NCBI RefSeq assembly: GCF_023228165.1
Contig: NZ_JALOBS010000005.1
Coordinates: forward strand, 82,264 to 146,263
DNA: 64,000 nt
Direction of reading: 5' to 3'
Source of the DNA: Methylomonas sp.
GTDB taxonomy: Bacteria > Pseudomonadota > Gammaproteobacteria > Methylococcales > Methylomonadaceae
Position numbers and translations under genes: made by a program. Positions 398 through 16,241 of this stretch are shown here, piece by piece (the stretch's first letter is position 1; every line of letters begins with the position of its first letter). The notes under the pieces were generated by a model, which was not told the DNA's origin, searched no databases, and worked only from the letters and a program-made list of their open reading frames with translations.

Positions 398-1339
398 TTA
401 TATTTCGTTGAGTAACGACAACTCGCCGGGGTGCGGTGTCAGGTAAAAAGACTCGTCTATAAACGCATCCGGCTGTTTACGAAAATGATGCCGCAACAAA
501 GTCAACGGTACAATCAACGGCACGCTACCTTGACGGTAGGTTTCGATAGTATTCGCCAACTCCTGCTTATCGTCGCTATCGATGGTGCGCTTTAAATAAC
601 CCTGAATATGTTGCAACACATTCACATGGTTACCCCTGGTCGCGACAATCTTAAGGCAGGCCATTAATTCGACAATATACCGTTGAGCAATTTCATCGAT
701 ATTATCGGCCCGCGCTTCGGCAATCAACCGTCCCAATTCCCTGGCCCTATTTTGCTCATGGCTCATGGCGATCAATTTATGCCGGCTATGGAAACGCATC
801 AAGCCGTGCACGGTTAAAGGACTTTGGCACAATTGCCGCCAACGGTGGCGAACAAAGACCCGTTGGATAAAGTTTTCCCGTAAACCGGGATCGCCTAACC
901 GGCCTTCTTCCTCAATGGGTAGGGTTGGAAAATGTTGTTGCAGATAATCGGCAAACACCCCCACTCCGCTACGGGCCGGAATCTGGTTTTTATAGACTTT
1001 GACCCGTTCCATGCCGCAACTGGGCGAGTCCTTCTTTAGAATATAACCGCATAAACCCATCAGCCATTCGCGCTGTCTTTCTCCCACGTCCCGCAACGCT
1101 TCCGTGACATCCAGACTATGGTCCTTAACGCCTACCACCCTGATATGCGGGCCTATTTCCCGCAATTGCACCGCCGGGCGAGGCACACCCAGACCGGCTT
1201 CCACTTCGGGACAAAAGGCCCTGAACTGGAAATATTGACCAAGTGTGCGTTCAATATAACTGTGATATTTGTGCGCGCCATCGTAGCGGACTAAATTGCC
1301 CAACAAACAACTGCTAATGCCTACTAATATACTGTCCAT
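398..1339 (-). CDS. ybgA: YbgA-family protein (DUF523 + DUF1722)
   Basis: GISSCLLGNLVRYDGAHK, CPEVEAGLGVPRP and LKKDSPSCG motifs, plus a C-terminal DUF1722-like region (FHSRHK...NVLQHIQGY); near the photolyase as in other proteobacteria. Confidence 0.88.
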   Translation of the reverse strand: MDSILVGISSCLLGNLVRYDGAHKYHSYIERTLGQYFQFRAFCPEVEAGLGVPRPAVQLREIGPHIRVVGVKDHSLDVTEALRDVGERQREWLMGLCGYILKKDSPSCGMERVKVYKNQIPARSGVGVFADYLQQHFPTLPIEEEGRLGDPGLRENFIQRVFVRHRWRQLCQSPLTVHGLMRFHSRHKLIAMSHEQNRARELGRLIAEARADNIDEIAQRYIVELMACLKIVATRGNHVNVLQHIQGYLKRTIDSDDKQELANTIETYRQGSVPLIVPLTLLRHHFRKQPDAFIDESFYLTPHPGELSLLNEI

Positions 1340-1347
1340 ATTGGTGT

Positions 1348-1866
1348 TTACGGTCGAGGTTGCAAATAAATTAAATCCTCGGTCGGAAAACCCAGGGTTC
1401 GGGCTTGTTGTACCAAGGCCCGCAAAACAGAGTTATCCAGCTTGGGGGTGCGCGCCAGGATCCACAGATATTCGGTAGTGGGTCCGGCAATCATCACATA
1501 CTGATAAGCCGCTTTATCCAGTGCCATGATGTTATAGGCGCCATAAAACGGCCCGAAAAACGACACTTTCAAGCGCCCAACTTGCGGACTGTCGATGAAA
1601 TAAGCTTTACCTTCAGCCATTTGCCGTTGCTGCTCTTCGGCATTGTATCCGCTGTTAATCACCTTTACGCCGCCATCTTCGCGCAAACTGTATTCAGCGG
1701 TTACCTGGGACAAGCCCCGTTCAAAACTGTGATCCAGCCGGGCGATTTCATGCCAGGTGCCCAGATAGCGGTTCAGTTCAAATCCCGTTACCGGCTTGAC
1801 TCCCGCGGGTATGCCGGTGCAAGCCGTGAAACTCAACGCCAAAAGAAAACATAAAAAATACCGCAT
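1348..1866 (-). CDS. blc: Outer-membrane lipoprotein lipocalin
   Basis: Lipobox-like FTAC, lipocalin motifs RYLGTWHEIAR and YLWILARTP. Confidence 0.92.
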   Translation of the reverse strand: MRYFLCFLLALSFTACTGIPAGVKPVTGFELNRYLGTWHEIARLDHSFERGLSQVTAEYSLREDGGVKVINSGYNAEEQQRQMAEGKAYFIDSPQVGRLKVSFFGPFYGAYNIMALDKAAYQYVMIAGPTTEYLWILARTPKLDNSVLRALVQQARTLGFPTEDLIYLQPRP

Positions 1867-1874
1867 AAATACGC

Positions 1875-3242
1875 CTATGGTTGTTGGCCGGCTTGCTGAA
1901 ACAAGATCTTGGCCTGTTGGCTGCGTATGCCGTGCGCCACTATCGGCGGTGGATAACTGCCGGCCAACGGTTTTTGGTAGCCATTATGGATCGCTGCCGG
2001 CGTATGGTCTTTTAACACCGGCAACCAGTGTTTGATATACACGCAATCGGGATCGAATTTTTTTTGCTGCAGCCAGGGATTGAAAATTCGGAAGTAAGGT
2101 TGGGCATCGCAACCGGTGGATGCCGCCCATTGCCAGTTACCGTTATTCAGACAGGGGTCGTAATCCAGCAACTGGCGGGCAAAATAACCTTCACCCCATT
2201 GCCAATCAATATGCAAATCCTTCACCAAAAATGAGGCGACGATCATGCGCACCCGATTATGCATACCGCCGGTCTGGTTTAACTGCCGCATCCCGGCATC
2301 GACAATGGGGAAACCGGTCCGCCCTTCGGCCCAGGCCTGGAATTCCTCTCTGTCGTTGCGCCAGACTATCCGGTCGTAGCGTTGATGGAAGCCATGTCCG
2401 AAAACTCGCGGAAAGTAAAAGGCAATGTGGGTAAAAAAATCCCGCCAATACAATTGCCGTAACAAAGGATGTTCGGTTCCCAGCTTTTCCACCACCGCAT
2501 AATAGGCTTCCCGGACCGAGCAACAGCCGAACTTGAGATAGGCCGACAAATTGCTGCCGGCCGACAGCGCAGGATAATCGCGTTGTCGACTGTAGTCCCT
2601 GCAATCCGCCAGGCTTTCCAGCTTTTGCAATGCGGCTTGCCGACCGCCAAGCAACGCATGGTGATGGGCTTGCTGCAATTGCGAAACCAGATCGGCGTGG
2701 TGTTCGCCATCAAGCAATTGTCCTTCAGCCAAGCCTTGCGGCAGACCGACCGGATGCAAGCGGGACCTGTTATAAAAGGCTGTGAATACCTGATAAGCTG
2801 AACCATCGCTTTTCAGGCAAGTTTCCGGCTCATTTAGCAACGCGTCGGCACAACTATAAAAATCCAGCCCCTGCTTCTCGCAAAATGTTTGCAACTCGGC
2901 GTCGCGCCGGCGGCTGAAGGGGGTGAAATCGCGATTGACAAATACCGCATCGAAAACCTGTTCACGTTGCAAGCGGCTGATAATCTGTTCGGGTTGCCCA
3001 TGATATAAACCGAGTTGACGCTGGTGGGCCTGAAACTGCTGCTGCAAGTCTTGCAAGGCCTCCAGCATAAATTGCAACCCCGGTCGACTTTGATAGGGAT
3101 GCGGTTCGATCTGGCGCGGGTCGAAAATAAAACAAGCCAACACCTGCTCGGACTGTTGCAAGGCGGCATTCAATCCGGAATTGTCGTATAAACGTAGATC
3201 GCGACGAAAAATAAACAGGGATTTTGCAAAGCGTTTCTTCAT
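1875..3242 (-). CDS. phrB: Deoxyribodipyrimidine photolyase (class I CPD photolyase/cryptochrome family)
   Basis: FRRDLRLYDN, LSAYLKFG, WAEGRTGFPIVDAGMRQL, MHNRVRMIVASFL and NNGNWQW FAD-binding motifs. Confidence 0.95.
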   Translation of the reverse strand: MKKRFAKSLFIFRRDLRLYDNSGLNAALQQSEQVLACFIFDPRQIEPHPYQSRPGLQFMLEALQDLQQQFQAHQRQLGLYHGQPEQIISRLQREQVFDAVFVNRDFTPFSRRRDAELQTFCEKQGLDFYSCADALLNEPETCLKSDGSAYQVFTAFYNRSRLHPVGLPQGLAEGQLLDGEHHADLVSQLQQAHHHALLGGRQAALQKLESLADCRDYSRQRDYPALSAGSNLSAYLKFGCCSVREAYYAVVEKLGTEHPLLRQLYWRDFFTHIAFYFPRVFGHGFHQRYDRIVWRNDREEFQAWAEGRTGFPIVDAGMRQLNQTGGMHNRVRMIVASFLVKDLHIDWQWGEGYFARQLLDYDPCLNNGNWQWAASTGCDAQPYFRIFNPWLQQKKFDPDCVYIKHWLPVLKDHTPAAIHNGYQKPLAGSYPPPIVAHGIRSQQAKILFQQAGQQP

Positions 3243-3248: not shown

Positions 3249-3761
3249 TTAAAAGCAATCGCCCCAGTGAATGATCATTTGCTGACAGTTAAACAGAATA
3301 TTAGGGTAATGCTGGTAAATCACCCAGCGAAAGGCCAAATCGCAATAAGCAGCCACCGTCATCCAGCGCGCCACACTGGGCCAAATACGGCTGGAGCTGT
3401 TTTTGGAACAACGCCATACCGCTCCCGTCCAGTAAATAAGCGGCATGGCTATAATGATATGCATGGTTACCCAACTGGCCACCGTGAATGTACCTTCCTG
3501 AACACGATAATCGATATACCACAATATACCGTTAAAAAAAATAAAGAAAGGCCAGAATGCGTCCTTTAATTTCAAACAGCCCAACCAACTCCACTGTAAA
3601 TAAAAATACAAGGTGGGCGGGGTGCGTTCTTCCCATTCCGGTAAGGGTTCAGGTGTGATGGTGTAGATCAGCACGGCAAACGCCAAACCCAACAGTAGCG
3701 CTTCGTACCAGGCAATGAATGAGGTAAAGGCAAATAATAAAGATAGGCTATCGATAAGCAT
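3249..3761 (-). CDS. Hypothetical multi-pass membrane protein
   Basis: 170 aa ORF with several hydrophobic Trp-rich segments, 6 bp from neighbours in a co-directional run. Confidence 0.7.
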   Translation of the reverse strand: MLIDSLSLLFAFTSFIAWYEALLLGLAFAVLIYTITPEPLPEWEERTPPTLYFYLQWSWLGCLKLKDAFWPFFIFFNGILWYIDYRVQEGTFTVASWVTMHIIIAMPLIYWTGAVWRCSKNSSSRIWPSVARWMTVAAYCDLAFRWVIYQHYPNILFNCQQMIIHWGDCF

Positions 3762-3767: not shown

Positions 3768-4682
3768 TTATTGGATGGGGAACAGAAGATTGCGCAAGGC
3801 TGAGTCGAGTTGGGTAAATTGAAAGGAATAACCTTTATCCAAAAGCCGTTGAGGAATCACACGCTGGCTACCCAAAACCAGGGCGGCCATTTCGCCCAGC
3901 AATAGCTTTAGCGCGAATTCCGGCATGGGCAGCAATAGAGGGCGGTTTAAAACCCCCGCCAAATTTTCGCTGAACTCTCTATTCGTAACCGGAATCGGCG
4001 CCGTAGCATTATAGGGTCCCCGCATATTGGGATTGCCTATCATGGCTTGCGCAATTTCCAGCCAGTCTTGCAGATGTACCCAAGACATCCATTGCCCGCC
4101 CTGTCCTAGCCGACCGCCCAAACCAAGCCGAAACGGCAGCAACATGCGTTTCAGTAATCCGCCACCCTGCCCCAAGACCAGCCCGGTACGTATCAAACAA
4201 ACCCGCGTACCACTGGCTTCCGCCTGCAGTGCGGACTGCTCCCAATCAGCACATAATTGCTGAGAGAAGTCGACCCGCGGCAGGCTTTGTTCGGTCAGCA
4301 ATTCATCGCCCTGATCGCCATAAAAACCGATGGCGGAACCGCTAATCAATACATCCGGCGGGCTATTAGACGAGTTAATCCAGTTGACCAGTTGCCGGGT
4401 AAAATCGATACGGCTTTTACGCAATACCTGCTTGCGCGCATCGTTCCAGCGTTGATCGAAAATTCCCGCACCGGCCAAATTGATCACGGCTTTATAGCTG
4501 GAAGCGTCGGGCAAGTCTTCGATCCGTGTGATGGCCGGCACCTGATGGTGAAAAGCTCGCTGCACTTTGTCGGCACTGCGGCTGAAAATCGTTACAGGTT
4601 GATTTTCCTGTAACCATTTATAAGTCAAGGCGCTACCCAAAAAACCAGTACCGCCGGTAATTAAAATGGATTTATTTGGCAT
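3768..4682 (-). CDS. TIGR01777-family NAD-dependent epimerase/oxidoreductase (YfcH-like)
   Basis: ITGGTGFLG Rossmann motif, VINLAGAGIF, SGSAIGFYG, RTGLVLG, GPYNATAP. Confidence 0.92.
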   Translation of the reverse strand: MPNKSILITGGTGFLGSALTYKWLQENQPVTIFSRSADKVQRAFHHQVPAITRIEDLPDASSYKAVINLAGAGIFDQRWNDARKQVLRKSRIDFTRQLVNWINSSNSPPDVLISGSAIGFYGDQGDELLTEQSLPRVDFSQQLCADWEQSALQAEASGTRVCLIRTGLVLGQGGGLLKRMLLPFRLGLGGRLGQGGQWMSWVHLQDWLEIAQAMIGNPNMRGPYNATAPIPVTNREFSENLAGVLNRPLLLPMPEFALKLLLGEMAALVLGSQRVIPQRLLDKGYSFQFTQLDSALRNLLFPIQ

Positions 4683-4712: not shown

Positions 4713-5354
4713 TTATTCGTTATCTTCAAGCGAAATCGGCCTACCCTTTGGGAGCATCAACTTGGCCAATTGCCGGTTTTTAAGCCTAACCAGCACTCTG
4801 AAGCCCAACAAAAATGAAATGATGGTCAGATAAAATAAGGGCTGAAACAAATTACCTTTCAGTTGCCAGAAATAATGAATAACGGCTGCTCCGGCGGCAT
4901 AATAAATAAGCCGATGCAGTTTTTTCCAATTTTTACCCAAGCGTTTTTTAGCGGATTTGGGTGAAGTAATCGCCAGCATTAAGACAATAACATAAGCGAT
5001 TACGCCGAACCAGATATACGAACTCTCGATAATATCGATTCCTATCACCCGCCATGCGCCGGCATGATCGACAAATAAATAGCCGAATACATGTAAGGTG
5101 GCGTAAAAAAATGCATATAACCCTAGCATTTGCCGATATTCAGCCATCCCCCGCCATTTGGTCATCGTTTGAATCGGCGTAACGGCCAGCGTAAGGCAGA
5201 GAAAACGCAAAGACCAATCTCCCAGGCGAATATGAATGGCCTGAATCGGATTTGAGCCTAAATTATTGGTGACAATATCCAATAGCAAACCGAATAGGGG
5301 CAGCAAACAACCTATTGAAATAACGATCCATGCATTATTGATACGAAACCACAT
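4713..5354 (-). CDS. msrQ: Methionine-sulfoxide reductase heme-binding membrane subunit (YedZ)
   Basis: Ferric-reductase-like TM protein (LAVTP, RQMLGLYAF, LH, WKKLHRLIY); overlaps the msrP stop. Confidence 0.9.
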   Translation of the reverse strand: MWFRINNAWIVISIGCLLPLFGLLLDIVTNNLGSNPIQAIHIRLGDWSLRFLCLTLAVTPIQTMTKWRGMAEYRQMLGLYAFFYATLHVFGYLFVDHAGAWRVIGIDIIESSYIWFGVIAYVIVLMLAITSPKSAKKRLGKNWKKLHRLIYYAAGAAVIHYFWQLKGNLFQPLFYLTIISFLLGFRVLVRLKNRQLAKLMLPKGRPISLEDNE

Positions 5355-6313
5355 CAGTAAAAATGCCGTAAGTCCATGTCACTATATAAAGAAGCGACTT
5401 GCTCGCCATAGCCGTTATAAAGTTCCGTCTGACGACGCGGCGTAAAAAACCTACTACCCAATCGTCGCTCGCTAAATTGACTCCAGCGCGGGTGAGGTAC
5501 CGACGGATTGACATTGGCATAAAACCCATATTCGTTGGGCGCGAATGCGTGCCAGGTGGTCATGGGCGCTCGGTTTAACAATTCGATTTTAACGATGGCC
5601 TTGATGCTTTTAAAACCGTATTTCCAGGGCACCACCAAACGTAAAGCCGCCCCGTTTTGTTTGGGTAACGCATCGCCATACATGCCGACAGCTAAAATCG
5701 TCAGCGGATGAACGGCCTCGTCAATGCGTAATGCTTCCACATATGGCCAATCCAGCATGGCATTGATACGCTGCTTAGGCATGTTCTCCGGGTCATATAT
5801 AGAGGTAAACTTGACAAACTTGGCTTTGGACAACGGTTTGAGCCTTTTAATCAGATCGACCAGTGGAAACCCAATCCACGGAATGACCATGGACCAGGCC
5901 TCGACACAGCGAAAACGGTAAACGTATTCCTGTAAAGTTTGCCGTCCCAGAATATCTTCCAACTGATAATGGCCCGGTTTTTCTACTTCCCCGCTGATTT
6001 CGATAGTCCAGTTGTCTGTGTGAAGACTTTGCGCCAATTCAGTGGAGTCCTGTTTATTAAAAGAAAACTCATAGTAATTTGTGTAGTTTTTAACTAATTC
6101 CGGCGGGGTAATTAAGCCTATATCGGTAGAATGTTTACTCTTCGTTAATGCCGGCCAACGTAATTGAGGGACAGTATTAGCCGAAACCGACCCAATAGCA
6201 GCAGGAAGCAAAGTACCCGCCAACAGGGCCTTGATAATGTTCCGCCGCTGTTGAAATACTAATGGATCTGTAATTTCACTCGCAGGGATAGCTTTATTTG
6301 TTTTTATAATCAT
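5354..6313 (-). CDS. msrP: Methionine-sulfoxide reductase molybdopterin catalytic subunit (YedY)
   Basis: Tat-like QRRNIIK, NYYEF, YRFRCVEAWSMVIPW, VVPWKYGFKSIK, YGFYANVNP. Confidence 0.95.
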   Translation of the reverse strand: MIIKTNKAIPASEITDPLVFQQRRNIIKALLAGTLLPAAIGSVSANTVPQLRWPALTKSKHSTDIGLITPPELVKNYTNYYEFSFNKQDSTELAQSLHTDNWTIEISGEVEKPGHYQLEDILGRQTLQEYVYRFRCVEAWSMVIPWIGFPLVDLIKRLKPLSKAKFVKFTSIYDPENMPKQRINAMLDWPYVEALRIDEAVHPLTILAVGMYGDALPKQNGAALRLVVPWKYGFKSIKAIVKIELLNRAPMTTWHAFAPNEYGFYANVNPSVPHPRWSQFSERRLGSRFFTPRRQTELYNGYGEQVASLYSDMDLRHFY

Positions 6314-7190: not shown

Positions 7191-7340
7191 AACCCCACCC
7201 CTATTAAATCCAATAACTATTATTCTTATTCACTATTCGGCGCAAAGCACAACAGGTCTCCCCGCGAACGACCTCGTGCCGTCCCACCTGCTTCCATGCA
7301 GGGAAGTAGGAAAATAGAAATCAAGGGAAACGCTTATTTT

Positions 7341-7379
7341 GCCCCTTCATCCCAGCCTTCTCCCGCCGGAAGAAGGGGC
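7341..7379. repeat. Short GC-rich inverted repeat, REP-like
   Basis: gccccttc...gaaggggc arms with inner ccttct/agaagg, in the LOV-desaturase intergenic gap. Confidence 0.4.
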
Positions 7380-9826: not shown

Positions 9827-9845
9827 GGCTGATACCTCTTATTTG

Positions 9846-9884
9846 AAAAAAATACCCTCCCTGAGTACTGCAATGGGAGGGTAT
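9846..9884 (-). terminator. Rho-independent terminator after ftsH
   Basis: 10-bp stem ATACCCTCCC/GGGAGGGTAT followed on the minus strand by a T7 run. Confidence 0.75.
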
Positions 9885-9898: not shown

Positions 9899-11800
9899 TT
9901 ATGAGGTCGTGACAGGTTCTTCAGAAATTGATTCCGCTTGGCCATCATCAAGCTCATATTCAGTTACAAGCGGCTCGGGCTCGGGTTCCGGCTCGGGTGG
10001 CGCTATGGTTTTGCCCTGCAATAACTCATCGATCTGATATTTATCGATGGTTTCCCAATCCAGTAGCGCATGCGCCATGTTATGGAGAATTTCGATATTG
10101 TCTTTCAGGATGGTTTCTGCACGGTTGTAATTGCTATCAATCACTGCACGAATTTCTTCGTCGATGGTTTCCGCCATTTTTTGCGACATTGGCTTGGATT
10201 GCGGCCCCATGTAGCCGCCTTCGTTATCACCATAATCCATTGGCCCCAGCTTGTCGGAAAGACCCCACTTTGTGACCATGTTTCTGGCCAACTGCGTGGC
10301 ACGCATGATGTCGTTCGAGGCGCCCGTGGTAACCTTGTTCTTACCGTAAATCAAAGCCTCTGCCACCCGACCGCCAAACAAGCTGGCAATTTGACTTTCC
10401 AATTTGTCCTTACTGGCGCTGTATTGATCCCGCTCCGGTAAGAACATGGTAATACCGAGCGCCCCACCGCGCGGCATGATGCTGACTTTATAGACCGGGT
10501 CGTGTTCAGGCACCATGCGACCGACGATGGCGTGGCCCGCTTCGTGGTAGGCTGTCATCAACAAATCTTCTCGCCTCATTACCATGGTACGTTTTTCCGC
10601 GCCCATGATCATTTTGTCGCGGGCTTTGTCCAGATCGTTCATGCTGACCACGCGTTTGCTGTTCCGTGCGGCAAACAAAGCGCCTTCGTTGATCAGATTG
10701 GCCAATTCAGCCCCGGAAAATCCTGGGGTGCCGCGGGCCAGATCGGTGATATTCACATCGTCGGCCAAAGGTACCCGTTCGCCGTGTACCTTAAGAATTT
10801 GTTCACGGCCCTTGATATCAGGCAAACCGACCTGGACTTGACGATCAAACCGGCCCGGCCTTAACAAGGCTTTGTCGAGCACATCCGCACGGTTGGTGGC
10901 GGCAATCACGATAATGCCTTCATTGCCGCTGAAACCGTCCATTTCGACCAACAACTGGTTCAAGGTTTGTTCGCGTTCGTCATTACCGCCACCCACGCCT
11001 GCACCACCGCGCTGACGGCCGACTGCATCGATCTCATCAATGAATATGATGCAGGGCGCGCGTTTTTTGGCCTGCTCGAACATGTCTCGTACCCTCGAGG
11101 CGCCGACACCCACAAACATTTCCACAAAGTCGGAACCCGATATAGAGAAGAATGGTACCCCTGCTTCACCGGCTATGGCCCGCGCCAGCAAGGTTTTACC
11201 GGTACCTGGCGGCCCAACCATCAATACACCGCGGGGAATTTTGCCTCCCAAGGCTTCATATTTGCCGGGGTCTTTCAGGAAATCCACCATTTCAACCACG
11301 TCTTCCTTGGCTTCTTCCACCCCGGCAACGTCTTTAAAACGCACCTTGACCTGGTCTTCTTCCATCAATTTGGCGCGGCTTTTACCGAAACCCATTTGTC
11401 CGTCACGCCCACCGGCCATCGAGGACTGTTTGCGCATGAAGTAGATCAGCACCGCGATCAATAACAAAGTCGGCGCCCAGGAGATGAGAATATTCATCAG
11501 GGTGGATGGCGGTTCCGGTTTTTCGACCTTGATTTTGACACCGTATTCCAACAACTCGTCAATCATGCGCATATCGTTGGGATTATAAGTAGAAAAACGG
11601 CTGCCGTTATTGCGCTTACCGTCGACATTATTCCCATCTATGACCACTTCGGTCACCACTTTATTACGCACATCCTCGATAAAATCGGAATAGGAAATTT
11701 CGTAATGCGGATCGTATTCGGGCATGTTTCGATTGAATATCGAAGAAACCACTATCCCAATCGCCGCAACAATTACGACAAAAAATAAAATTTTCTTCAT
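9899..11800 (-). CDS. ftsH: ATP-dependent zinc metalloprotease FtsH (probable paralogue)
   Basis: Two N-terminal TMs, Walker A GPPGTGKT, Walker [27 protein letters not shown] zinc motif. Confidence 0.97.
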
Positions 11801-11817: not shown

Positions 11818-12678
11818 TCACTTTTCGCTGGAGAAATATTTGAAAAAATCGGAGTTCGGCTTTAACACCAACGTATCCTGGGTATTTTCAAATGACGCTT
11901 GATAGGCCTGCAAGCTACGATGGAAGGCATAAAACTCAGGGTTTTTTCCATAGCTTTTCGCATAAATTTCGGCGGATTCCGCATCGCCGCGACCCCGAAC
12001 ATTTTCTGCTTCGCGCTGGGCATTGGCTACGATGACATGTCTTTGCTTATCGGCTTCCGCACTGATCAATTCCGCGCTTTCAGCGCCTTGCGATCTAAAC
12101 TCTCTGGCTACCCGTTCGCGTTCCGCTCGCATACGTTGAAATACCGAGCTACTGACTTCCGGCGGTAAATCGATGCGTTTAATGCGAATATCGATCAGCT
12201 CAATGCCAAATTTTTTAGCCGTGGGCGACAATTTCTCCAACAAAGTATCGCGCAGTTCGCTACGGTCTTCCGAGATCAACTGTTTGATGTTACGTATGCC
12301 GAATTCGCTACGCATGGCATCTTTCATGATCTGATCGAGGCGCAGATTGGCTTGAAACTCATCGCCGCCGACCGTGGTGTAAAAAAGACCCACATCACCG
12401 ATTCGCCACTTGACGAACGAGTCAACAATAACGTTCTTCTTTTCGGAGGTAAGAAAACGCTCGGATTTAGCATCCAAGGTCAGCACGCGCGCATCAAACA
12501 TACTGACATTATTGATGAAGGGGGTCTTAAAATGGAGTCCGGGCTTTAAATCAGTGGTAACGATTTCTCCCAGACGAAATAAAATGGCTCTCTCATGTTC
12601 ATTAACATGAAAAACCGACATGGCGGCCAATCCCAAAAACGCCAGACTGACCGGAAAAATGACTTGTGCTTTGTTCAT
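11818..12678 (-). CDS. hflC: FtsH modulator HflC (SPFH)
   Basis: PGLHFKTPF, LTSEKKNVIVDSFVKWRI, RMRAERER, PEFYAFHRSLQAY. Confidence 0.95.
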   Translation of the reverse strand: MNKAQVIFPVSLAFLGLAAMSVFHVNEHERAILFRLGEIVTTDLKPGLHFKTPFINNVSMFDARVLTLDAKSERFLTSEKKNVIVDSFVKWRIGDVGLFYTTVGGDEFQANLRLDQIMKDAMRSEFGIRNIKQLISEDRSELRDTLLEKLSPTAKKFGIELIDIRIKRIDLPPEVSSSVFQRMRAERERVAREFRSQGAESAELISAEADKQRHVIVANAQREAENVRGRGDAESAEIYAKSYGKNPEFYAFHRSLQAYQASFENTQDTLVLKPNSDFFKYFSSEK

Positions 12679-13841
12679 TATCTGCTCCTGCTTGGACGCA
12701 ATTCATTGGACGCTGAATTACGCGCGTGGTTTTTAACCGCATTATGGTGCTCAACGTTCAATTCAGGTTCGTTGGCTGCGGCACCGGAAGGCGCCTGAGG
12801 AGCCGACATCTGTTGTAACGGCATGTAAAGCGCGGGCGGTTGATCAGTATCGACCACGATCTTGTTGGTCGAGCTGTACAATTTTTCCTTAGCTTCCAAA
12901 TACAAACGTTTACGGGTAATAGCAGGGTTTTTCTCGTATTCAACCAGCAATTGATCGAAGCGTTCGGTCTCACCCTTTGCTTTCGCCACTTTTTCAGCCG
13001 AATACCCTTCCGCTTCCTGTAGAATACGGGCTGCCGCACCACGCGCTTTAGGGATAATTTCGTTGCTGTAAGCTTCAGCTTCGTTGATCAGACGCTGTTT
13101 GTCTTCTCTGGCGCGAATCGCATCTTCGAAAGCGCCCTGCACTTCTTCCGGTGGCTGGGCGTCTTGCAAATTGACGCTGGCTACAATAACGCCGCCCTTG
13201 TACTCATCCATGGCCTGCTGGATATCGGTTTTGATTTCCGCCACGATTTGGCTGCGGCCTTCGGTTAGCACATAGTCCATATTGTTTCTGCCGATCACAC
13301 CCCGCAACACGCTTTCCGTCAACTGTTTCAGGGTATGTTCGTTATTTTTGACATTGAACAGATAATCCCTGGCACTGTTGATTTGATATTGCACCGCCAA
13401 ACGAACCGCGATGATGTTTTCGTCGCTGGTCAACATTAAAGATTCTTGTGGAATCACGGAAGACTTGCTGACTCTAGCCGAATCGCTATAGCCCACTTCT
13501 ATAAATCGCTGTTGTTCGACATTCACCACGCTGACCGATTCAATCGGTAACGGAATATGCCAGTGAGGGCCCGGCATGGTAGTTTCGGTATAAGCGCCAA
13601 AACGAGTGACCACACCACGATTACCCTGATCGATAATATAAATACCGCTGATCAGCCAGCCCAAAACCAAAGAACCGCCCAGCACACTCGCGACTTTTGA
13701 CAGGGAAAACATATTTTCATGTGCGTGGTAAAAATCCACGGTCTTATCGGAAATGGCTTTCCATTGTTTTTCAAACTCCATTTTCCAATCCGGCGGCGGC
13801 GTTTGTTTATCGGTGTTGTGGTTTTCTGAAGACATAGTCAC
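12678..13841 (-). CDS. hflK: FtsH modulator HflK (SPFH)
   Basis: GVVTRFG, PGPHWHIP, MLTSDENI, QPPEEVQGAFEDAIRARED, RKRLYLE. Confidence 0.95.
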   Translation of the reverse strand: MTMSSENHNTDKQTPPPDWKMEFEKQWKAISDKTVDFYHAHENMFSLSKVASVLGGSLVLGWLISGIYIIDQGNRGVVTRFGAYTETTMPGPHWHIPLPIESVSVVNVEQQRFIEVGYSDSARVSKSSVIPQESLMLTSDENIIAVRLAVQYQINSARDYLFNVKNNEHTLKQLTESVLRGVIGRNNMDYVLTEGRSQIVAEIKTDIQQAMDEYKGGVIVASVNLQDAQPPEEVQGAFEDAIRAREDKQRLINEAEAYSNEIIPKARGAAARILQEAEGYSAEKVAKAKGETERFDQLLVEYEKNPAITRKRLYLEAKEKLYSSTNKIVVDTDQPPALYMPLQQMSAPQAPSGAAANEPELNVEHHNAVKNHARNSASNELRPSRSR

Positions 13842-13978: not shown

Positions 13979-15247
13979 TTAAGTATCTTTTGGTTCCAAA
14001 AACAGCATAAGGTCAAACCCAAATTGTTGTTTTAATTTTTGCAAAGCTTCGTTTTGAATTTGTCTGACGCGTTCCCGAGTCACTTGTAACTGATCCGCAA
14101 CGGCCTGCAAAGTCATTTCGGTATGATTTTTTAAGCCGAACCGCATCGCTAAAATGACGGCCTGTTTTTCGGGTAAGGTGGCCACAGCCCTATCCATATA
14201 ACTCGCCAGATCGTTATCGATCAGGTCTTCCAACGGCAAACTAAATTGCTGCTGCTGCATTTTTTCCATTATGGACATACCATCGTCTTCTTCATTGGTG
14301 CTTGCATCCTGCATGTAAGTCGATTGATAGTAACTGCTGATGGTCTTGATTTCTTGTTCGGATAAATCGCAGCTGGCTTTCAATTCGGCAAATGTGGGCC
14401 ACCGCTCGTGTTGCAAATAAGTGGTACGCATTACTTCAAATAGGGGAGAGGATTTCTCAGCCAGTGCAACCGGCAACGGCACCGCTTTTTCTTGCTTGAC
14501 GATCAATCTTGAAATCGCTTGCCGGACCCAATAAATGGCATAGGTTGAAAAACAATTGCCCCGCTCGGGGTCAAAGCGGTCGACCGCTTTGATCAATCCC
14601 ACCATGCCTTCCTGCATCAAGTCGTCAAAACTTAAGGAAACGGTTCTATATTTATGCGCCACAAACGCCACCAAGCCGGTATTACTGGCAATCATTTCCT
14701 GGCGCAGTCGTTTAAGCTGGTATCTTAGCTCGCGCAAACGGACCTTATAATCAGGCGCCAATTCGCTCAGCAACCCTAGATTATTTTCGACAAACCCACT
14801 CGTTTCAAGCAGATAAATCGCTAGAAAATGCAATTCCCGCAAAAGCCCGTAGGCAGCCGCTGAAATCTCAACCCGTTCACTCGGCATATGACTTAAAACT
14901 TGTACAAGCCTATAATCCTGTACAACATTGTATCTGTTAACCGGCCTAACCTCGCTCAAAACGCTATCGAAAAACGCCTCTTGATTGGCAAACTCAGCTA
15001 CAAACCGGCGTAAGGAGTCCTTGTAGTTGTCGTTGTTCTTAACCAGCAATATGTCCGAATATTCGGTGCCTTTATGTAAGTCCAACAGCAACTGCCTGAC
15101 GATAAAACCAGCCACCTGATTGTTTTCCAACAAGAAATCAAGCAACTGCTGACGCGCTTTTTCGACACGGCAAGCCAGAATCACGGGTTCGGACTCGCTA
15201 GCAAGACGACCGACCGATTGGGTAACTACTTCGGGGAGTGCTGACAT
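13979..15247 (-). CDS. Alternative sigma-70 family factor (RpoD/RpoS-like, regions 2-4)
   Basis: Region 2 DLMQEGMVGLIKAVDRFDPERGNCFSTYAIYWVRQAI; region 4 HTH TLQAVADQLQVTRERVRQIQ; atypical N-terminus. Confidence 0.9.
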   Translation of the reverse strand: MSALPEVVTQSVGRLASESEPVILACRVEKARQQLLDFLLENNQVAGFIVRQLLLDLHKGTEYSDILLVKNNDNYKDSLRRFVAEFANQEAFFDSVLSEVRPVNRYNVVQDYRLVQVLSHMPSERVEISAAAYGLLRELHFLAIYLLETSGFVENNLGLLSELAPDYKVRLRELRYQLKRLRQEMIASNTGLVAFVAHKYRTVSLSFDDLMQEGMVGLIKAVDRFDPERGNCFSTYAIYWVRQAISRLIVKQEKAVPLPVALAEKSSPLFEVMRTTYLQHERWPTFAELKASCDLSEQEIKTISSYYQSTYMQDASTNEEDDGMSIMEKMQQQQFSLPLEDLIDNDLASYMDRAVATLPEKQAVILAMRFGLKNHTEMTLQAVADQLQVTRERVRQIQNEALQKLKQQFGFDLMLFLEPKDT

Positions 15248-15282
15248 TGGTTTTTACCGGATTAAATATTAGGTTGGAATCG

Positions 15283-15311
15283 AAGATACAATGCTGTAGA
15301 ATTTTTGTCAA
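15283..15311 (-). promoter_or_regulatory. Sigma-70-type promoter of the sigma gene, overlapped by putative CarH operator repeats
   Basis: Minus strand TTGACA (15311-15306)-N17-TATCTT (15288-15283); TTGACA and TCTACA (15300-15295) are TnnACA motifs 11 bp apart. Confidence 0.6.
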
Positions 15312-15338
15312 ACTTATTTTAGTACAAAACATAAACAA

Positions 15339-16241
15339 ATGTATTCAATTAAAGCAATCACATCCTTAACCGGCCTGACAGCGGAAACTTTGAGAGCCTG
15401 GGAGCGTCGCTATGATTGCATTACCCCAAAACGCAACGAGAATGGCCGCCGGTCCTATTCCCAAATGGATTTGGAAAAACTCAAGTTGTTAGTTAATTTG
15501 ACTCGAAACGGCCACGGCATCAGTAAAATTGCTAACCTGACCTGCGAGCAATTGCGCCATTATCAGAACCAATCACCTGAACAAAACGACCAACAGCAAA
15601 CGATTTTGTTCAATCAGTTGGTGGATGCCTTGCAAAATTACCGTATCGAACGCTGCGAGCAATTGTTGAAACGCGCGCAACTGGCCTACGAACCTCTGGA
15701 CTATGCCAGAGACGTTTTATTACCCGCATTGCATTTAATCGGCCAACTCTGGCACGAAGAGAAAATCAATATTGCCCAGGAACACATGTTTTGTAATTGT
15801 GTAAAACGCATCGTGCTGACCATGGTGAATAATCTGCATCATCCCTCCAAGCAGAACCCTTCCATGTTATTCGCCACGCCCAGCGGCGAACCCCACGAAT
15901 TCGGAATATTGCTAGGTTGCCTGGTGGCGGCGGCCCAACAATACACTTGCTACTACGTAGGCCCGGATCTTCCCAGCCTGGATATTATCGATGCCAGCCA
16001 GCATCTAAAACCGTCCGTTATAGTACTGGGCGTGGTTAAAAATCCGCCGGAAAAACAAACCCTGTTACAACTCGACCAATTGGTCGGTTTTGCCGAAACC
16101 GGCGCAACCAAACTTTGGCTGGCCGGCGCTGGTGCCGAATACTGGTTCAATTTACATCAATCACCGCCAGCGGGATGCGAGTGGATTGCCAACATCGACC
16201 AATTCCACGCCAAAGCCCAGCAACATCACTTTTTTAGATAA
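15339..16241 (+). CDS. carH: MerR-family cobalamin-dependent photoreceptor/repressor, CarH/LitR type
   Basis: MerR HTH (TLRAWERRY, R.ENGRRSY), W-x9-EH (WHEEKINIAQEH) and E-x-H-x-x-G (EPHEFG) B12 motifs. Confidence 0.88.
   Translation: MYSIKAITSLTGLTAETLRAWERRYDCITPKRNENGRRSYSQMDLEKLKLLVNLTRNGHGISKIANLTCEQLRHYQNQSPEQNDQQQTILFNQLVDALQNYRIERCEQLLKRAQLAYEPLDYARDVLLPALHLIGQLWHEEKINIAQEHMFCNCVKRIVLTMVNNLHHPSKQNPSMLFATPSGEPHEFGILLGCLVAAAQQYTCYYVGPDLPSLDIIDASQHLKPSVIVLGVVKNPPEKQTLLQLDQLVGFAETGATKLWLAGAGAEYWFNLHQSPPAGCEWIANIDQFHAKAQQHHFFR

What the first reader, a model, noticed from the sequence alone, without database searches (positions are those of the whole stretch)
398..16241. 15-kb multi-photoreceptor island: B12 (CarH), BLUF, LOV and photolyase linked to a sigma factor and membrane repair
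Seen: 16 co-directional genes from the sigma gene to ybgA, divergent from a CarH/LitR with intact B12 motifs. Known: LitR/CarH-type regulators control phrB, blc, ybgA and TIGR01777-like genes in other proteobacteria. Unusual here: three sensory photochemistries in one locus, plus a non-ECF sigma-70, HflKC-FtsH, MsrPQ and a desaturase. Inference: light photolyses CarH-AdoB12, which derepresses the sigma factor and induces an envelope and photo-oxidative repair regulon. If the host is a methanotroph, this could bear on how methane oxidisers cope with light.
Basis: partly seen in the sequence, partly recalled or inferred. Interest (0 to 1): 0.75.

Follow-up and report, generated by a model that had tools for sequence, protein, structure and literature searches.

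The report
B12-gated light-stress locus of Methylomonas
A methane-oxidising bacterium (Methylomonas) carries a conserved gene cluster in which a vitamin-B12 light sensor sits on the promoter of its own special sigma factor and a spare copy of the FtsH-HflKC membrane protease, followed by blue-light sensors and repair enzymes, which gives a concrete genetic handle on how methanotrophs cope with light.

Summary
Sixteen co-directional genes (398-15247, minus strand) lie divergent from a CarH/LitR gene (15339-16241) with intact AdoB12 motifs. LOV, BLUF and photolyase signatures are intact. The host is a Methylomonas from a groundwater metagenome.

New here:
- The 91-bp carH-sigma spacer holds two perfect 11-bp CarH-type repeats. 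They cover the -35 of a TTGACA-17-TATCTT sigma promoter and the -10 of the carH promoter. The pattern occurs nowhere else in the window or in 137 fetched loci.
- The order carH<->sigma-hflK-hflC-ftsH-...-rudS is kept in about 14 Methylomonas species, including MC09 and M. koyamae. A smaller core (carH<->sigma-ftsH-mem-BLUF/PsiE-yfcH-mem) is kept in Methylomarinum and another Methylococcaceae MAG.
- FtsH and HflKC are extra paralogues beside the housekeeping copies.
- The sigma is RpoD/RpoS-like with a lineage-restricted N-terminal domain.
- A conserved intrinsic terminator follows ftsH, so the array is not one plain operon.
- "ybgA" is a RudS tRNA-s4U desulfidase. The "desaturase" is a FA_hydroxylase-family enzyme. 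BLUF is fused to a PsiE membrane domain and is absent from many species.

Light induction and the sigma's targets remain inferred. Verdict: a new variant of the CarH/LitR light-regulon theme, moderately to highly interesting.

The parts
15339..16241 (+). carH/litR: class I (AdoB12-type) MerR-family photoreceptor-repressor, 300 aa
   Evidence: Pfam finds MerR_1 and B12-binding_2. It aligns to T. thermophilus CarH 5C8D over residues 2-239, E 1e-25. The motifs WHEEKINIAQEH (Wx9EH) and EPHEFG (ExHxxG) are present and conserved in 17 orthologues.
15295..15326 (-). Predicted CarH operator. Two perfect tandem 11-bp repeats nAnnTnnACAn lie at 15295-15314, and a third (T)GTAC(A) site lies at 15320-15326, 15 bp upstream.
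   Evidence: This is the only match to the two-repeat pattern in 64 kb (expected 0.04). In 137 fetched loci the pattern hits only carH-sigma spacers and the sigma upstream region of L026/L136. The core GTTTTGTAC..TTTGACAA..ATTnTACA is conserved in Methylomonas, Methylomarinum and a third lineage.
15283..15311 (-). Sigma-operon promoter: TTGACA (15311-15306), 17-nt spacer, TATCTT (15288-15283)
   Evidence: Found by the promoter scan, 10 of 12 matches. The -35 and the position of the -10 are conserved across species. The operator repeats cover the -35 and the spacer.
15274..15302 (+). carH promoter: TTGGAA, 17-nt spacer, TAGAAT preceded by TG. It is divergent from the sigma promoter and overlaps it.
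   Evidence: TTGG[AC]A and TGTA[GT]AAT are conserved. The -10 lies inside an operator repeat, which implies autoregulation.
13979..15247 (-). Lineage-specific RpoD/RpoS-like sigma factor, 422 aa (regions 2-4 plus an orphan 175-aa N-terminal helical domain)
   Evidence: Pfam finds r2 and r4. The best NCBIfam matches are the MzaA, RpoD and RpoS types, all below cut-off. The best PDB sequence matches are RpoD/RpoS at E 5e-40, with RpoD-like region 2.4 and 4.2 residues. Foldseek matches sigma70. The N-terminal domain has only 5 relatives among 1.84 billion representatives.
12678..13841 (-). hflK, second (cluster-specific) copy
   Evidence: TIGR01933 at 317 bits, cut-off 159. A separate colinear hflK-hflC contig in M. 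methanica RNA assemblies shows a second locus.
11818..12678 (-). hflC, second (cluster-specific) copy
   Evidence: TIGR01932 at 293 bits, cut-off 134. Paralogy is shown as for hflK.
9899..11800 (-). ftsH paralogue, 633 aa, with intact Walker A/B and HEAGH
   Evidence: TIGR01241 at 835 bits, cut-off 600. It is 83% identical to the sigma-linked FtsH of other genera but only 66-69% identical to the housekeeping FtsH of other Methylococcaceae; the one whose neighbours were annotated, Methylovulum L030 (66-68%), lies in greA-rlmE-ftsH-glmM. A separate greA-rlmE-ftsH-glmM contig exists in M. methanica RNA assemblies.
9845..9884 (-). Conserved intrinsic terminator after ftsH: a 10-bp GC-rich stem followed by a U7 run. 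It is preceded by the invariant motif GTCCTCCTCTAT (9886-9897).
   Evidence: Alignment of 14 species shows near-identity, and one pair covaries as C-G, A-U and G-C. Equivalent hairpins follow ftsH in Methylomarinum and L026. The predicted fold also pairs CCUCU with the mem139 Shine-Dalgarno AGAGG.
9407..9826 (-). mem139: small polytopic membrane protein of unknown function that always follows the cluster ftsH
   Evidence: No significant family match. It is syntenic in Methylomonas, Methylomarinum and L026.
8494..9372 (-). BLUF-PsiE: flavin blue-light sensor fused to a PsiE-family membrane domain
   Evidence: Pfam finds BLUF over residues 1-92 and PsiE over 169-289. Y6, Q48 and WSM are conserved. 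There are 1333 homologues; all 120 listed carry both domains, and every organism name given for them is a Methylococcales methanotroph or an unclassified Gammaproteobacteria MAG. It is present in the cluster of the window, MC09, M. lenta, Methylomarinum and L026, and absent from the other Methylomonas, which keep no remnants.
7902..8378 (-). SRPBCC (Polyketide_cyc2-like) small ligand-binding protein
   Evidence: Pfam PF10604, just above cut-off. Syntenic in Methylomonas.
7399..7860 (-). Short LOV photoreceptor, 153 aa, with no effector domain
   Evidence: Pfam finds PAS_9. GHNCRFLQ is conserved in all orthologues. The closest solved structures are the Pseudomonas short LOVs 5LUV and 3SW1 (PpSB1-LOV), E 1e-30, over the N-cap, core and J-alpha.
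7191..7398 (.). Genome-specific GC-rich insertion of about 170 bp between LOV and the FA_hydroxylase gene
   Evidence: Other species have 25-70 bp at this position. It is not repeated in the window. Its fold is not better than shuffled sequence.
6363..7190 (-). Membrane di-iron enzyme of the FA_hydroxylase/sterol-desaturase superfamily
   Evidence: Pfam PF04116. The nearest NCBIfam model is OlsE, at 78 bits against a cut-off of 475.
4713..6313 (-). msrP (5354-6313) and msrQ (4713-5354): periplasmic methionine-sulfoxide reductase system
   Evidence: MsrP scores 434 bits against NF003767 (cut-off 207). MsrQ scores 168 bits against NF003831 (cut-off 130).
3768..4682 (-). TIGR01777 (YfcH/ThyD-like) SDR with a DUF1731 domain
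   Evidence: TIGR01777 at 351 bits, cut-off 207. It belongs to the cross-genus core.
3249..3761 (-). mem170: Trp-rich membrane protein with a conserved C-terminal CxQMxIxxGDC motif. The family is restricted to this lineage.
   Evidence: No family match. Only 26 loci were found among 185,579 species genomes, all Methylomonas or related MAGs. It is always next to yfcH or rudS.
1875..3242 (-). Photolyase (class I CPD photolyase/cryptochrome family)
   Evidence: Pfam finds DNA_photolyase and FAD_binding_7. It is below all NCBIfam equivalog cut-offs.
1348..1866 (-). Blc-like outer-membrane lipocalin
   Evidence: Pfam finds Lipocalin_2. NF007786 scores 215 bits against a cut-off of 267.
398..1339 (-). 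rudS-type gene (TudS desulfidase fused to DUF1722): predicted tRNA 4-thiouridine de-modifying enzyme
   Evidence: Pfam finds PF04463 and PF08349. This architecture is the experimentally characterised RudS, which is reported to occur in light-responsive operons (PMC11417400).
16321..16854 (+). orf177: secreted protein of unknown function 80 bp downstream of carH. It may be co-transcribed with carH.
   Evidence: No family match. It is found next to carH in M. rivi, MC09, L005 and L013, but was not detected in the other species.

Best explanation
This is a chromosomal light-stress locus of Methylomonas built around a B12 photoreceptor switch.

In the dark, tetrameric CarH-AdoB12 is predicted to occupy an operator of 11-bp repeats. 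The operator covers two overlapping divergent sigma70-type promoters. One drives carH itself. The other drives a four-gene operon that encodes a lineage-specific RpoD/RpoS-like sigma factor and a second, dedicated copy of the HflK-HflC-FtsH membrane protease complex. That operon ends at a conserved intrinsic terminator.

UV-to-green light photolyses AdoB12, CarH leaves the DNA, and both promoters fire. The new sigma has RpoD-like -10 and -35 recognition residues. It is proposed to raise transcription of the twelve tightly packed genes downstream and probably of distal photoprotective genes, with help from terminator read-through. Those twelve genes are:
- mem139
- BLUF-PsiE
- SRPBCC
- short LOV
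- FA_hydroxylase
- MsrPQ
- YfcH-like SDR
- mem170
- photolyase
- Blc
- RudS

The extra FtsH-HflKC would remove photo-damaged membrane proteins. The flavin sensors add blue-light inputs at the protein level. The LOV, a close relative of the Pseudomonas short LOVs that inactivate a LitR repressor, may act on CarH. BLUF-PsiE would act at the membrane.

Shown by sequence: gene content, intact sensor motifs, operator and promoter architecture, terminator, synteny, and paralogy of FtsH and HflKC. Inferred: light induction, B12 dependence, the sigma's targets, FtsH substrates, and the LOV and BLUF partners.

The confidence given is for the core claim, a CarH-gated and light-inducible sigma-HflKC-FtsH operon that heads a photoprotective locus. 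The sigma-to-distal-genes step alone is about 0.35.
For: - CarH aligns to TtCarH through the HTH, the four-helix bundle and the Rossmann domain, and Wx9EH and ExHxxG are conserved in all 17 orthologues.
- Two perfect nAnnTnnACAn repeats lie on the -35 and spacer of TTGACA-17-TATCTT and on the -10 of the carH promoter. The pattern is unique in the window (expected 0.04). In 137 loci it is found only in this spacer or upstream of the orthologous sigma.
- The operator core is conserved across three genera.
- carH<->sigma adjacency holds in Methylomonas and Methylomarinum.
- The sigma-ftsH link holds in Methylomarinum and in the C1.bin.36 MAG.
- FtsH and HflKC are additional copies.
- The sigma is RpoD/RpoS-like and not ECF, and its N-terminal domain is lineage-restricted.
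- The terminator is conserved and shows covariation.
- Downstream spacers are mostly 6-50 bp.
- The downstream gene classes match known light regulons: phrB and RudS under LitR in Pseudomonas (PMC9758184; PMC11417400).
- LitR-to-sigma cascades are known in Streptomyces (PMC11519972).
Against: - There is no light/dark expression data for any organism that carries the cluster.
- In RNA-seq assemblies of a M. methanica strain, grown under conditions unknown to me, the cluster is covered at a depth similar to the housekeeping ftsH and hflKC contigs, so it is not silent there. These are contig depths, and a single contig spans the divergent promoters, so genomic DNA carry-over cannot be excluded.
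- Only two of the repeats match the Thermus consensus perfectly. The third site is displaced by 4 bp.
- No promoter motif specific to the sigma was found upstream of mem139, SRPBCC or any other downstream gene.
- There is no room for a promoter between the terminator and mem139.
- B12 supply in Methylomonas was not established.
- This genome comes from groundwater, a dark habitat.
Confidence: 0.65

Rival explanations
1. There is one long CarH-controlled transcript and no cascade. All 16 genes are expressed from the CarH-gated promoter by read-through, and the ftsH terminator only sets the ratio between the proximal and distal genes. The sigma factor's real targets lie elsewhere in the genome, for example carotenoid genes.
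For: - There is no space for a promoter between the terminator and mem139, and spacers are very short from SRPBCC onwards.
- RNA contigs run continuously from ftsH through the terminator into msrP.
- In Methylomarinum, carotenoid-type genes (an amine-oxidase/CrtN-like gene and an aldehyde dehydrogenase) sit in the carH-phr operon. This shows that the regulon extends beyond the sigma-side genes.
Against: - A strong terminator (10-bp GC-rich stem plus U7) that is conserved with covariation argues for real termination.
- The mem139-SRPBCC spacer is 65-330 bp in most species, which could hold a promoter.
- Contig continuity is weak evidence.
Confidence: 0.3
2. The LOV is the main or an additional light input to CarH, as in Pseudomonas. 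Illuminated short LOV would bind CarH's DNA-binding domain and release it from the operator. This would give blue-light control when AdoB12 is scarce, and a positive feedback loop because the LOV gene lies in the regulon.
For: - The LOV's closest solved relatives are the Pseudomonas short LOVs, E 1e-30 across the N-cap and J-alpha.
- PmSB-LOV was shown biochemically to be a light-dependent anti-repressor of the class II LitR PmlR2 (PMC9758184).
- The LOV is strictly syntenic and 72-95% conserved in every Methylomonas cluster checked.
Against: - This CarH is class I with a complete B12 pocket, unlike the B12-less class II partners in Pseudomonas.
- Methylomarinum and the C1.bin.36 cluster have carH and sigma without a LOV gene in the cluster, so the core switch works without it.
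- No interaction data exist.
Confidence: 0.2
3. The sigma and FtsH form a regulatory pair rather than a regulator and a repair machine. The co-expressed FtsH(-HflKC) would degrade the sigma, as E. coli FtsH degrades sigma32, or degrade a membrane inhibitor such as mem139. The light response would then become a self-limiting pulse.
For: - Sigma and the ftsH paralogue are adjacent in every lineage, even where hflKC, LOV and msrPQ are absent, and mem139 always follows ftsH.
- The sigma carries an orphan N-terminal domain that could serve as a degron or a docking site.
- FtsH-dependent sigma32 turnover is established knowledge (this point is from my own knowledge).
Against: This is purely inferential. 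Co-localisation is equally explained by co-regulated function. mem139 has no recognisable anti-sigma domain.
Confidence: 0.15
4. The locus is not a light response. CarH would act as a dark B12 or general stress sensor, and the cluster would be a general envelope and oxidative stress island.
For: - MsrPQ, FtsH-HflKC and Blc are general envelope-stress functions.
- The MAG comes from groundwater.
- The cluster is transcribed in ordinary cultures.
Against: - Four separate light-dependent protein types (AdoB12-CarH, LOV, BLUF, photolyase) and the UVA-related RudS are co-localised, with all photochemical residues conserved.
- The Wx9EH motif is the signature of the light-sensing AdoB12 mode in CarH (plus my own knowledge of the CarH structure).
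Confidence: 0.05

Closest known systems
Class I LitR/CarH light regulons (Thermus thermophilus CarH/LitR, Myxococcus CarH, Bacillus megaterium LitR)
   Same: - A MerR HTH, a four-helix bundle with Wx9EH and a Rossmann domain with ExHxxG.
- The regulator gene is divergent from its target.
- The operator is made of 11-bp nAnnTnnACAn repeats over the -35 region.
- The regulator is autoregulated.
   Different: - The direct target is not a carotenoid operon. It is an RpoD-like sigma factor plus a duplicated FtsH-HflKC protease.
- The repeat geometry is two tandem repeats plus a palindromic site offset by 15 bp, rather than three evenly spaced repeats.
Streptomyces LitR-LitS and Thermus LitR-LdrP cascades
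   Same: A B12 photoreceptor repressor controls a secondary transcription factor, which then switches on the light regulon. LitS is an ECF sigma (PMC11519972). The LdrP case is from my own knowledge.
   Different: - The secondary factor here is a full-length group 1/2-like sigma with an orphan N-terminal domain, not an ECF sigma or a CRP-family activator.
- It is co-transcribed with a protease complex.
Pseudomonas class II LitR (PplR/PmlR) with short LOV (PpSB-LOV/PmSB-LOV) light regulon
   Same: - A short LOV of the same subfamily.
- A regulon containing photolyase, RudS, SDR-type and lipid-modifying enzymes.
- A LitR-family repressor.
   Different: - The Pseudomonas regulators lack the B12 Rossmann domain and rely on the LOV as anti-repressor. 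Here the regulator keeps the full B12 pocket.
- The LOV gene lies about 7.5 kb away inside the regulon.
- Pseudomonas has no sigma factor or FtsH in the system.
Cyanobacterial and chloroplast high-light response (group 2 sigma factors, with FtsH-based repair of photodamaged membrane proteins)
   Same: Light-responsive RpoD-like alternative sigma, dedicated FtsH paralogues, a prohibitin/Band-7 partner and a TIGR01777/ThyD-like SDR, in an organism with extensive internal membranes. This comparison is an analogy drawn from my own knowledge, plus the ThyD match.
   Different: - The host is non-photosynthetic.
- The trigger is a B12 photoreceptor.
- No substrate is known.
- The resemblance is functional and by analogy only.

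Membership tests
CarH/LitR class I (AdoB12 photoreceptor repressor) | N-terminal MerR-type HTH | tested here: met
   PF13411 at E 1.5e-15. Aligned to the TtCarH DNA-binding domain.
CarH/LitR class I (AdoB12 photoreceptor repressor) | Four-helix bundle with Wx9EH capping the adenosyl group | tested here: met
   PF02607. WHEEKINIAQEH aligns to TtCarH W131..E141-H142. Conserved in 17 orthologues.
CarH/LitR class I (AdoB12 photoreceptor repressor) | Rossmann B12-binding domain with the lower-axial His in E/DxHxxG | tested here: met
   EPHEFG aligns to the TtCarH H177 motif, and the alignment to 8C31 runs to residue 271. PF02310 is not reported for the window protein at E 1e-3, but it is on record for the Methylomarinum and M. 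koyamae orthologues.
CarH/LitR class I (AdoB12 photoreceptor repressor) | Operator of tandem 11-bp repeats overlapping the target promoter | tested here: met
   Two perfect repeats lie over the -35 and spacer. The pattern is unique and conserved. The third repeat is imperfect.
CarH/LitR class I (AdoB12 photoreceptor repressor) | AdoB12-dependent tetramerisation and DNA binding in the dark, lost on illumination | not testable with these tools
   Needs purified protein (EMSA, SEC, UV-vis).
Short LOV photoreceptor (Pseudomonas SB-LOV type) | LOV core with the adduct-forming Cys in GxNCRFLQ | tested here: met
   GHNCRFLQ, conserved in all orthologues.
Short LOV photoreceptor (Pseudomonas SB-LOV type) | No fused effector domain, only an N-cap and J-alpha extensions | tested here: met
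   The protein is 153 aa. Residues 11-142 align to residues 22-153 of 5LUV and 3SW1. Only PAS-type Pfam matches were found.
Short LOV photoreceptor (Pseudomonas SB-LOV type) | Light-dependent binding to a LitR-family repressor | not testable with these tools
   Shown only for PmSB-LOV and PmlR2 (PMC9758184).
BLUF photoreceptor | Full BLUF fold with the conserved Tyr, Gln and Trp/Met | tested here: met
   PF04940 covers profile positions 1-92 of 92, E 1e-31. Y6, Q48 and W89-S-M91 are present.
Group 1/2 (RpoD/RpoS-like) sigma-70, as opposed to ECF | Regions 2, 3 and 4 contiguous, with RpoD-like 2.4 and 4.2 recognition residues | tested here: met
   Residues 152-409 align to RpoD 346-602 without a gap in region 3. 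FSTYAIYWVRQAISR and TRERVRQIQ are present. PF04539 is on record for some orthologues. Foldseek matches sigma70 and sigmaS.
Group 1/2 (RpoD/RpoS-like) sigma-70, as opposed to ECF | Membership of a named orthologous group (RpoD, RpoS, RpoH, FliA, MzaA) | tested here: not met
   All NCBIfam equivalog scores are far below cut-off, for example MzaA 197 against 800, RpoS 179 against 379 and RpoD 178 against 555. It is a separate family.
FtsH-HflKC membrane protease complex | FtsH with an AAA+ module and an M41 HExxH protease, and HflK and HflC of the SPFH family | tested here: met
   TIGR01241, TIGR01933 and TIGR01932 are all above cut-off. [12 protein letters not shown] and HEAGH can be read.
FtsH-HflKC membrane protease complex | Being the organism's housekeeping copy (rlmE-ftsH context; hflX-hflKC context) | tested here: not met
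   A second ftsH in a greA-rlmE-ftsH-glmM context and a second hflK-hflC are present in M. methanica RNA assemblies. The context of that second hflKC was not determined.
RudS (tRNA s4U desulfidase) | TudS (DUF523) desulfidase fused to DUF1722 | tested here: met
   PF04463 covers residues 6-145 and PF08349 covers 188-304. The architecture is as defined in PMC11417400. Enzyme activity was not tested.
MsrPQ | Molybdopterin MsrP and haem-b MsrQ, both above the equivalog cut-offs and adjacent | tested here: met
   NF003767 scores 434 against 207 and NF003831 scores 168 against 130. The two genes overlap by one base.
CPD photolyase (E. coli Phr equivalog) | Score above the equivalog cut-off | tested here: not met
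   PRK10674 scores 323 against 506 and TIGR03556 scores 344 against 885. The protein can be placed only at the level of the photolyase/cryptochrome family.

The most novel reading that the evidence does not exclude
Methylomonas and its relatives have evolved a dedicated, light-gated system for membrane-protein quality control. A B12 photoreceptor releases a private RpoD-like sigma factor together with a private FtsH-HflKC complex. This complex turns over photo-damaged proteins of the intracytoplasmic membranes, possibly including particulate methane monooxygenase. The system would be functionally convergent with the group 2 sigma and FtsH repair cycle of photosystem II. It would be the molecular basis for recovery of methane oxidation from light inhibition.
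Probability: 0.2. Interest if true: 0.8.

Novelty: new variant of a known kind. Interest (0 to 1): 0.62.

Why it matters
Light inhibition of aerobic methane oxidation in surface waters is repeatedly invoked in lake methane budgets (for example PMC7474682). My searches of the paper library found no molecular basis for it.

This locus shows that a major freshwater methanotroph genus carries a conserved and elaborate light-sensing and repair programme. Its regulatory entry point is clearly defined: a CarH operator on a sigma-factor promoter. Full-cluster copies exist in cultured strains with complete genome sequences (M. methanica MC09, M. koyamae), so the idea is directly testable.

For bacterial photobiology the locus adds three things:
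- a CarH regulon whose first target is a full-length RpoD-like sigma factor together with a duplicated FtsH-HflKC protease
- a pairing of a class I (B12) LitR with a Pseudomonas-type short LOV
- a BLUF-PsiE membrane photoreceptor architecture that I found undescribed in the literature and that is common in Methylococcales

Tried and rejected
- **RNA-seq for the window's own organism.** None exists. The sequence occurs only in groundwater and wastewater metagenome DNA runs.
- **RNA-seq of a M. methanica strain.** It is held only as assembled contigs. Depth is flat per contig and one contig spans the divergent promoters, so it says only that the cluster is transcribed or present. It gives nothing on operon boundaries or light.
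- **Rfam.** No riboswitch, B12 or otherwise, and no other RNA family anywhere in the window.
- **Sigma-specific promoter motif.** Alignments of the spacers upstream of mem139, BLUF, SRPBCC, LOV, FA_hydroxylase, msrP and yfcH show no shared motif. The mem139-SRPBCC spacer is poorly conserved.
- **Other CarH operators in the window.** None, even allowing 3 mismatches to the 18-mer core.
- **Remnants of BLUF-PsiE in species that lack it.** None were found. The gene occupies the same position in Methylomarinum and L026, so I read this as loss, but insertion cannot be strictly excluded.
- **FtsH genome scan.** I answered the paralogy question by laying M. methanica RNA contigs on a Methylovulum housekeeping locus instead.
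- **Fold of the 208-bp insertion.** Not better than shuffled sequence.
- **Horizontal transfer as the explanation for the low GC of five genes.** I rejected this as a firm conclusion, because mem139 belongs to the old cross-genus core.
- **MzaA (anti-phage sigma) membership.** Rejected on score, 197 against a cut-off of 800.

Full report
**1. What is there**

The region 398-15247 carries sixteen ORFs on the minus strand, and a 300-aa ORF at 15339-16241 is divergent from them. Pfam and NCBIfam assign them as follows, in transcription order:
1. A 422-aa sigma-70 family protein (regions 2 and 4).
2. HflK.
3. HflC.
4. FtsH (these three all above the TIGRFAM cut-offs).
5. A 139-aa membrane protein.
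6. A BLUF domain fused to a PsiE membrane domain.
7. An SRPBCC protein.
8. A 153-aa LOV protein.
9. A FA_hydroxylase-superfamily enzyme.
10. MsrP.
11. MsrQ (both above cut-off).
12. A TIGR01777 SDR.
13. A 170-aa Trp-rich membrane protein.
14. A photolyase.
15. A Blc-like lipocalin.
16. A TudS+DUF1722 fusion.

The divergent gene is a MerR-HTH/B12-binding_2 protein. It aligns with Thermus CarH (5C8D) through the DNA-binding domain, four-helix bundle and Rossmann domain (E 1e-25). The AdoB12 motifs Wx9EH (WHEEKINIAQEH) and ExHxxG (EPHEFG), the LOV motif GHNCRFLQ, and the BLUF Tyr, Gln and Trp-x-Met are all present. They are conserved in every orthologue examined.

Three labels need refining:
- 'ybgA' has the RudS architecture. 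RudS is an experimentally characterised tRNA 4-thiouridine desulfidase that lessens UVA-induced growth delay and is reported to occur in light-responsive operons (PMC11417400).
- The 'desaturase' can only be placed in the FA_hydroxylase superfamily.
- The BLUF protein is membrane-anchored through a PsiE domain.

**2. Host and conservation**

The sigma factor, CarH and the rest have their closest relatives in Methylomonas: 85% identity to M. rivi and 82% to M. methanica MC09. The window itself matches a groundwater metagenome. Flanking genes are housekeeping (coaX, birA, spoT, recG).

The order carH<->sigma-hflK-hflC-ftsH-mem139-(BLUF-PsiE)-SRPBCC-LOV-FAhyd-msrP-msrQ-yfcH-mem170-phr-blc-rudS is kept in about 14 Methylomonas species. 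These include the complete genomes of M. methanica MC09 and M. koyamae, and a further MAG.

BLUF-PsiE is present in the cluster only in the window, MC09 and M. lenta. The other species have a variable spacer of 65-330 bp with no remnants.

Outside the genus a smaller core recurs.
- Methylomarinum vadi has (aldehyde dehydrogenase, CrtN-like oxidase, PEMT, photolyase, carH)<->(sigma, ftsH, mem146, BLUF-PsiE, yfcH, mem172).
- A Methylococcaceae MAG has photolyase<->sigma-ftsH-mem-BLUF-PsiE-yfcH-mem.

So the old core is CarH, sigma, FtsH paralogue, small membrane protein, BLUF-PsiE, YfcH and mem170. Methylomonas added HflKC, SRPBCC, LOV, FA_hydroxylase, MsrPQ, Blc and RudS, and moved the photolyase. 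Many of its species then lost BLUF-PsiE.

Two families are essentially restricted to this lineage:
- The mem170 family was found in only 26 loci among 185,579 species genomes.
- The sigma's N-terminal 175 residues have 5 relatives among 1.84 billion representative proteins.

**3. The switch**

The carH-sigma spacer is 91 bp. On the sigma strand it carries TTGACA-17-TATCTT. On the carH strand it carries TTGGAA-17-TAGAAT with an upstream TG. The two promoters overlap back to back.

Two perfect tandem copies of the Thermus CarH repeat consensus nAnnTnnACAn lie at 15295-15314. They cover the sigma -35 and spacer and the carH -10. The two-repeat pattern occurs once in the 64-kb window against 0.04 expected. 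No further match to the 18-mer core is found even with three mismatches.

Across 137 fetched loci the pattern hits thirteen times. Every hit is in a carH-sigma spacer or directly upstream of the orthologous sigma. The core GTTTTGTAC(A)-n-TTTGACAA-nn-ATTnTACA is conserved in Methylomonas, Methylomarinum and the third lineage, with ACA spacings of 15 and 11 bp. In some species a second repeat pair faces carH.

This is the classical architecture for steric repression by a CarH tetramer and for autoregulation. It makes CarH control of the sigma operon the best-supported mechanistic statement here, though binding itself was not tested.

**4. What the switch controls directly**

The sigma-hflK spacer is short and variable. 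It is 50 bp in the M. methanica group and has no conserved promoter. hflK-hflC-ftsH are nearly contiguous.

Immediately after ftsH comes a 10-bp GC-rich hairpin followed by U7. It is almost invariant across the genus, and one pair covaries as C-G, A-U and G-C. Equivalent hairpins sit at the same place in the two other lineages. The first transcription unit is therefore sigma-hflK-hflC-ftsH.

*FtsH is not the housekeeping copy.*
- It is 83% identical to the sigma-linked FtsH of the other genera.
- It is only 66-69% identical to the FtsH of other Methylococcaceae. The one whose neighbours I annotated, in Methylovulum (L030, 66-68%), lies in the greA-rlmE-ftsH-glmM context.
- In RNA-seq assemblies that hold 100% of the M. 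methanica NCIMB 11130 cluster sequence, a separate contig is colinear with greA, rlmE, ftsH and glmM.

*HflKC is also an extra copy.* A separate contig is colinear with hflK-hflC in four patches with matching spacing.

The organism thus has a complete second FtsH-HflKC set under the CarH-gated promoter.

**5. The sigma factor**

- It aligns to E. coli RpoD residues 346-602 and to RpoS (E 5e-40).
- Its residues for -10 recognition (FSTYAIYWVRQAISR) and -35 recognition (TRERVRQIQ) are almost those of RpoD.
- Foldseek on an AlphaFold model (mean pLDDT 65.6) returns sigma70 and sigmaS.
- It is below cut-off for every named sigma family.

It is therefore a non-ECF, group 1/2-like sigma of its own family, and it probably reads sigma70-like promoters. 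That is why I could not recognise its targets by motif.

**6. The distal genes**

From SRPBCC to rudS the spacers are mostly 6-50 bp. The window-specific 208-bp insertion between LOV and the FA_hydroxylase gene is the exception. No promoter fits between the terminator and mem139.

These genes may be expressed by terminator read-through, by a promoter in the variable mem139-SRPBCC spacer, or by both. Whether the sigma is required is open.

Their functions fit photo-oxidative and UV damage control:
- MsrPQ repairs periplasmic methionine sulfoxide.
- Photolyase repairs UV-damaged DNA.
- RudS removes tRNA 4-thiouridine.
- The lipocalin and the lipid-modifying enzyme would act on the envelope.

They also overlap the LitR regulons of Pseudomonas (PMC9758184; PMC11417400).

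The LOV is a close relative of the Pseudomonas short LOVs. One of these is a light-dependent anti-repressor of a class II LitR (PMC9758184). An action on CarH is therefore a serious possibility, but the core switch exists without a LOV in Methylomarinum.

**7. Expression data**

No light/dark data exist. The M. methanica RNA assemblies show the cluster covered at depths similar to the housekeeping ftsH and hflKC contigs. It was therefore not silent in those cultures, whose conditions are unknown to me. Possible reasons are ambient light, a lack of B12 in the medium, or DNA carry-over. One contig spans the divergent promoters, so carry-over cannot be excluded.

**8. Comparison and novelty**

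CarH/LitR repressors, their 11-bp repeat operators and LitR-to-sigma cascades (LitR-LitS, PMC11519972) are known. So are light regulons with photolyase, RudS and short LOV.

What I did not find described:
- CarH gating a full-length RpoD-like sigma with a lineage-restricted N-terminal domain.
- A duplicated FtsH-HflKC complex as the first target of CarH.
- A class I LitR together with a Pseudomonas-type short LOV.
- The BLUF-PsiE architecture. It has 1333 homologues; all 120 listed carry both domains, and every organism name given is a Methylococcales methanotroph or an unclassified Gammaproteobacteria MAG.
- Any of this in methanotrophs.

I rate it a new variant of a known kind. It matters because light inhibition of methanotrophy is an ecological observation for which I found no molecular mechanism (PMC7474682), and cultured strains with complete genomes carry the full cluster.

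**9. Confidence**

| Claim | Confidence |
|---|---|
| CarH-operator control of sigma-hflKC-ftsH | about 0.7 |
| Light as the physiological signal | about 0.8, given the co-located photoreceptors |
| The sigma drives the distal genes | about 0.35 |
| The extra FtsH-HflKC repairs photo-damaged membrane proteins | about 0.4 |
| pMMO or intracytoplasmic-membrane proteins are the substrates | about 0.1-0.2 |

Noticed in passing
window 9845-9897 (minus strand): The 12 nt just after the ftsH stop codon (GTCCTCCTCTAT) are invariant in the 13 Methylomonas spacers that align there (one divergent MAG, L013, has a much longer spacer), which is more conserved than the coding sequence. The predicted fold pairs its CCUCU with the Shine-Dalgarno AGAGG of mem139, enclosing the terminator hairpin. 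This may be a translational or anti-termination control element.
   Followed up: partly
window 6363-9826: Five consecutive genes (FA_hydroxylase, LOV, SRPBCC, BLUF-PsiE, mem139) have 35-40% GC (GC3 31-42%), against 46-53% (GC3 52-59%) for the rest of the cluster. The cause is unknown. mem139 belongs to the old core, so simple recent horizontal transfer does not explain it.
   Followed up: partly
window 7191-7398: A GC-rich insertion of about 170 bp lies between LOV and the FA_hydroxylase gene and is found only in this genome. It is not repeated in the window and is not significantly structured.
   Followed up: yes
window 13842-13978: A tandem duplication of about 28 bp (ATTTTTGTTTCGAATCA[G/A]GAAATA, two copies) lies in the sigma-hflK spacer. 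It is shared only with M. rivi and absent from the other species.
   Followed up: partly
L126-L130 and L133 (MAGs labelled proteobacterium, Methylococcaceae or M. koyamae): A compact variant arrangement, cluster-type ftsH (84-88%)-mem170-rudS, lacks the genes in between. Its upstream region was not analysed.
   Followed up: no
L108 (Methylobacter marinus): A BLUF-PsiE homologue (52% identity) stands alone next to sucrose-synthesis genes. The architecture is therefore widespread in Methylococcales independently of the CarH cluster.
   Followed up: partly
window 28277-30321 (minus strand): An AbiL-type anti-phage pair (AbiLi AAA_21 ATPase, E 1e-91, plus AbiLii/RloB) lies in a low-GC stretch (43%).
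   Followed up: partly
window 54399-62984 (plus strand): A 1054-aa SEFIR-Roc-COR-TIR protein is followed, after an unannotated 387-aa ORF (57607-58770), by two TPR-S proteins, one of them fused to a patatin phospholipase. This looks like an NLR/STAND-type conflict or defence locus.
   Followed up: no
window 3249-3761 and alignments: mem170 is unusually rich in Trp and has two invariant Cys in a C-terminal CxQMxIxxGDC motif. The family is confined to these methanotrophs and always sits next to yfcH or rudS.
   Followed up: partly
L109 1-5912 (Methylomarinum vadi): On the carH side, carH is co-directional with a photolyase, a PEMT/ICMT methyltransferase, a CrtN-like amine-oxidase-family gene and an aldehyde dehydrogenase. 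This is probably a light-controlled C30 carotenoid operon.
   Followed up: no
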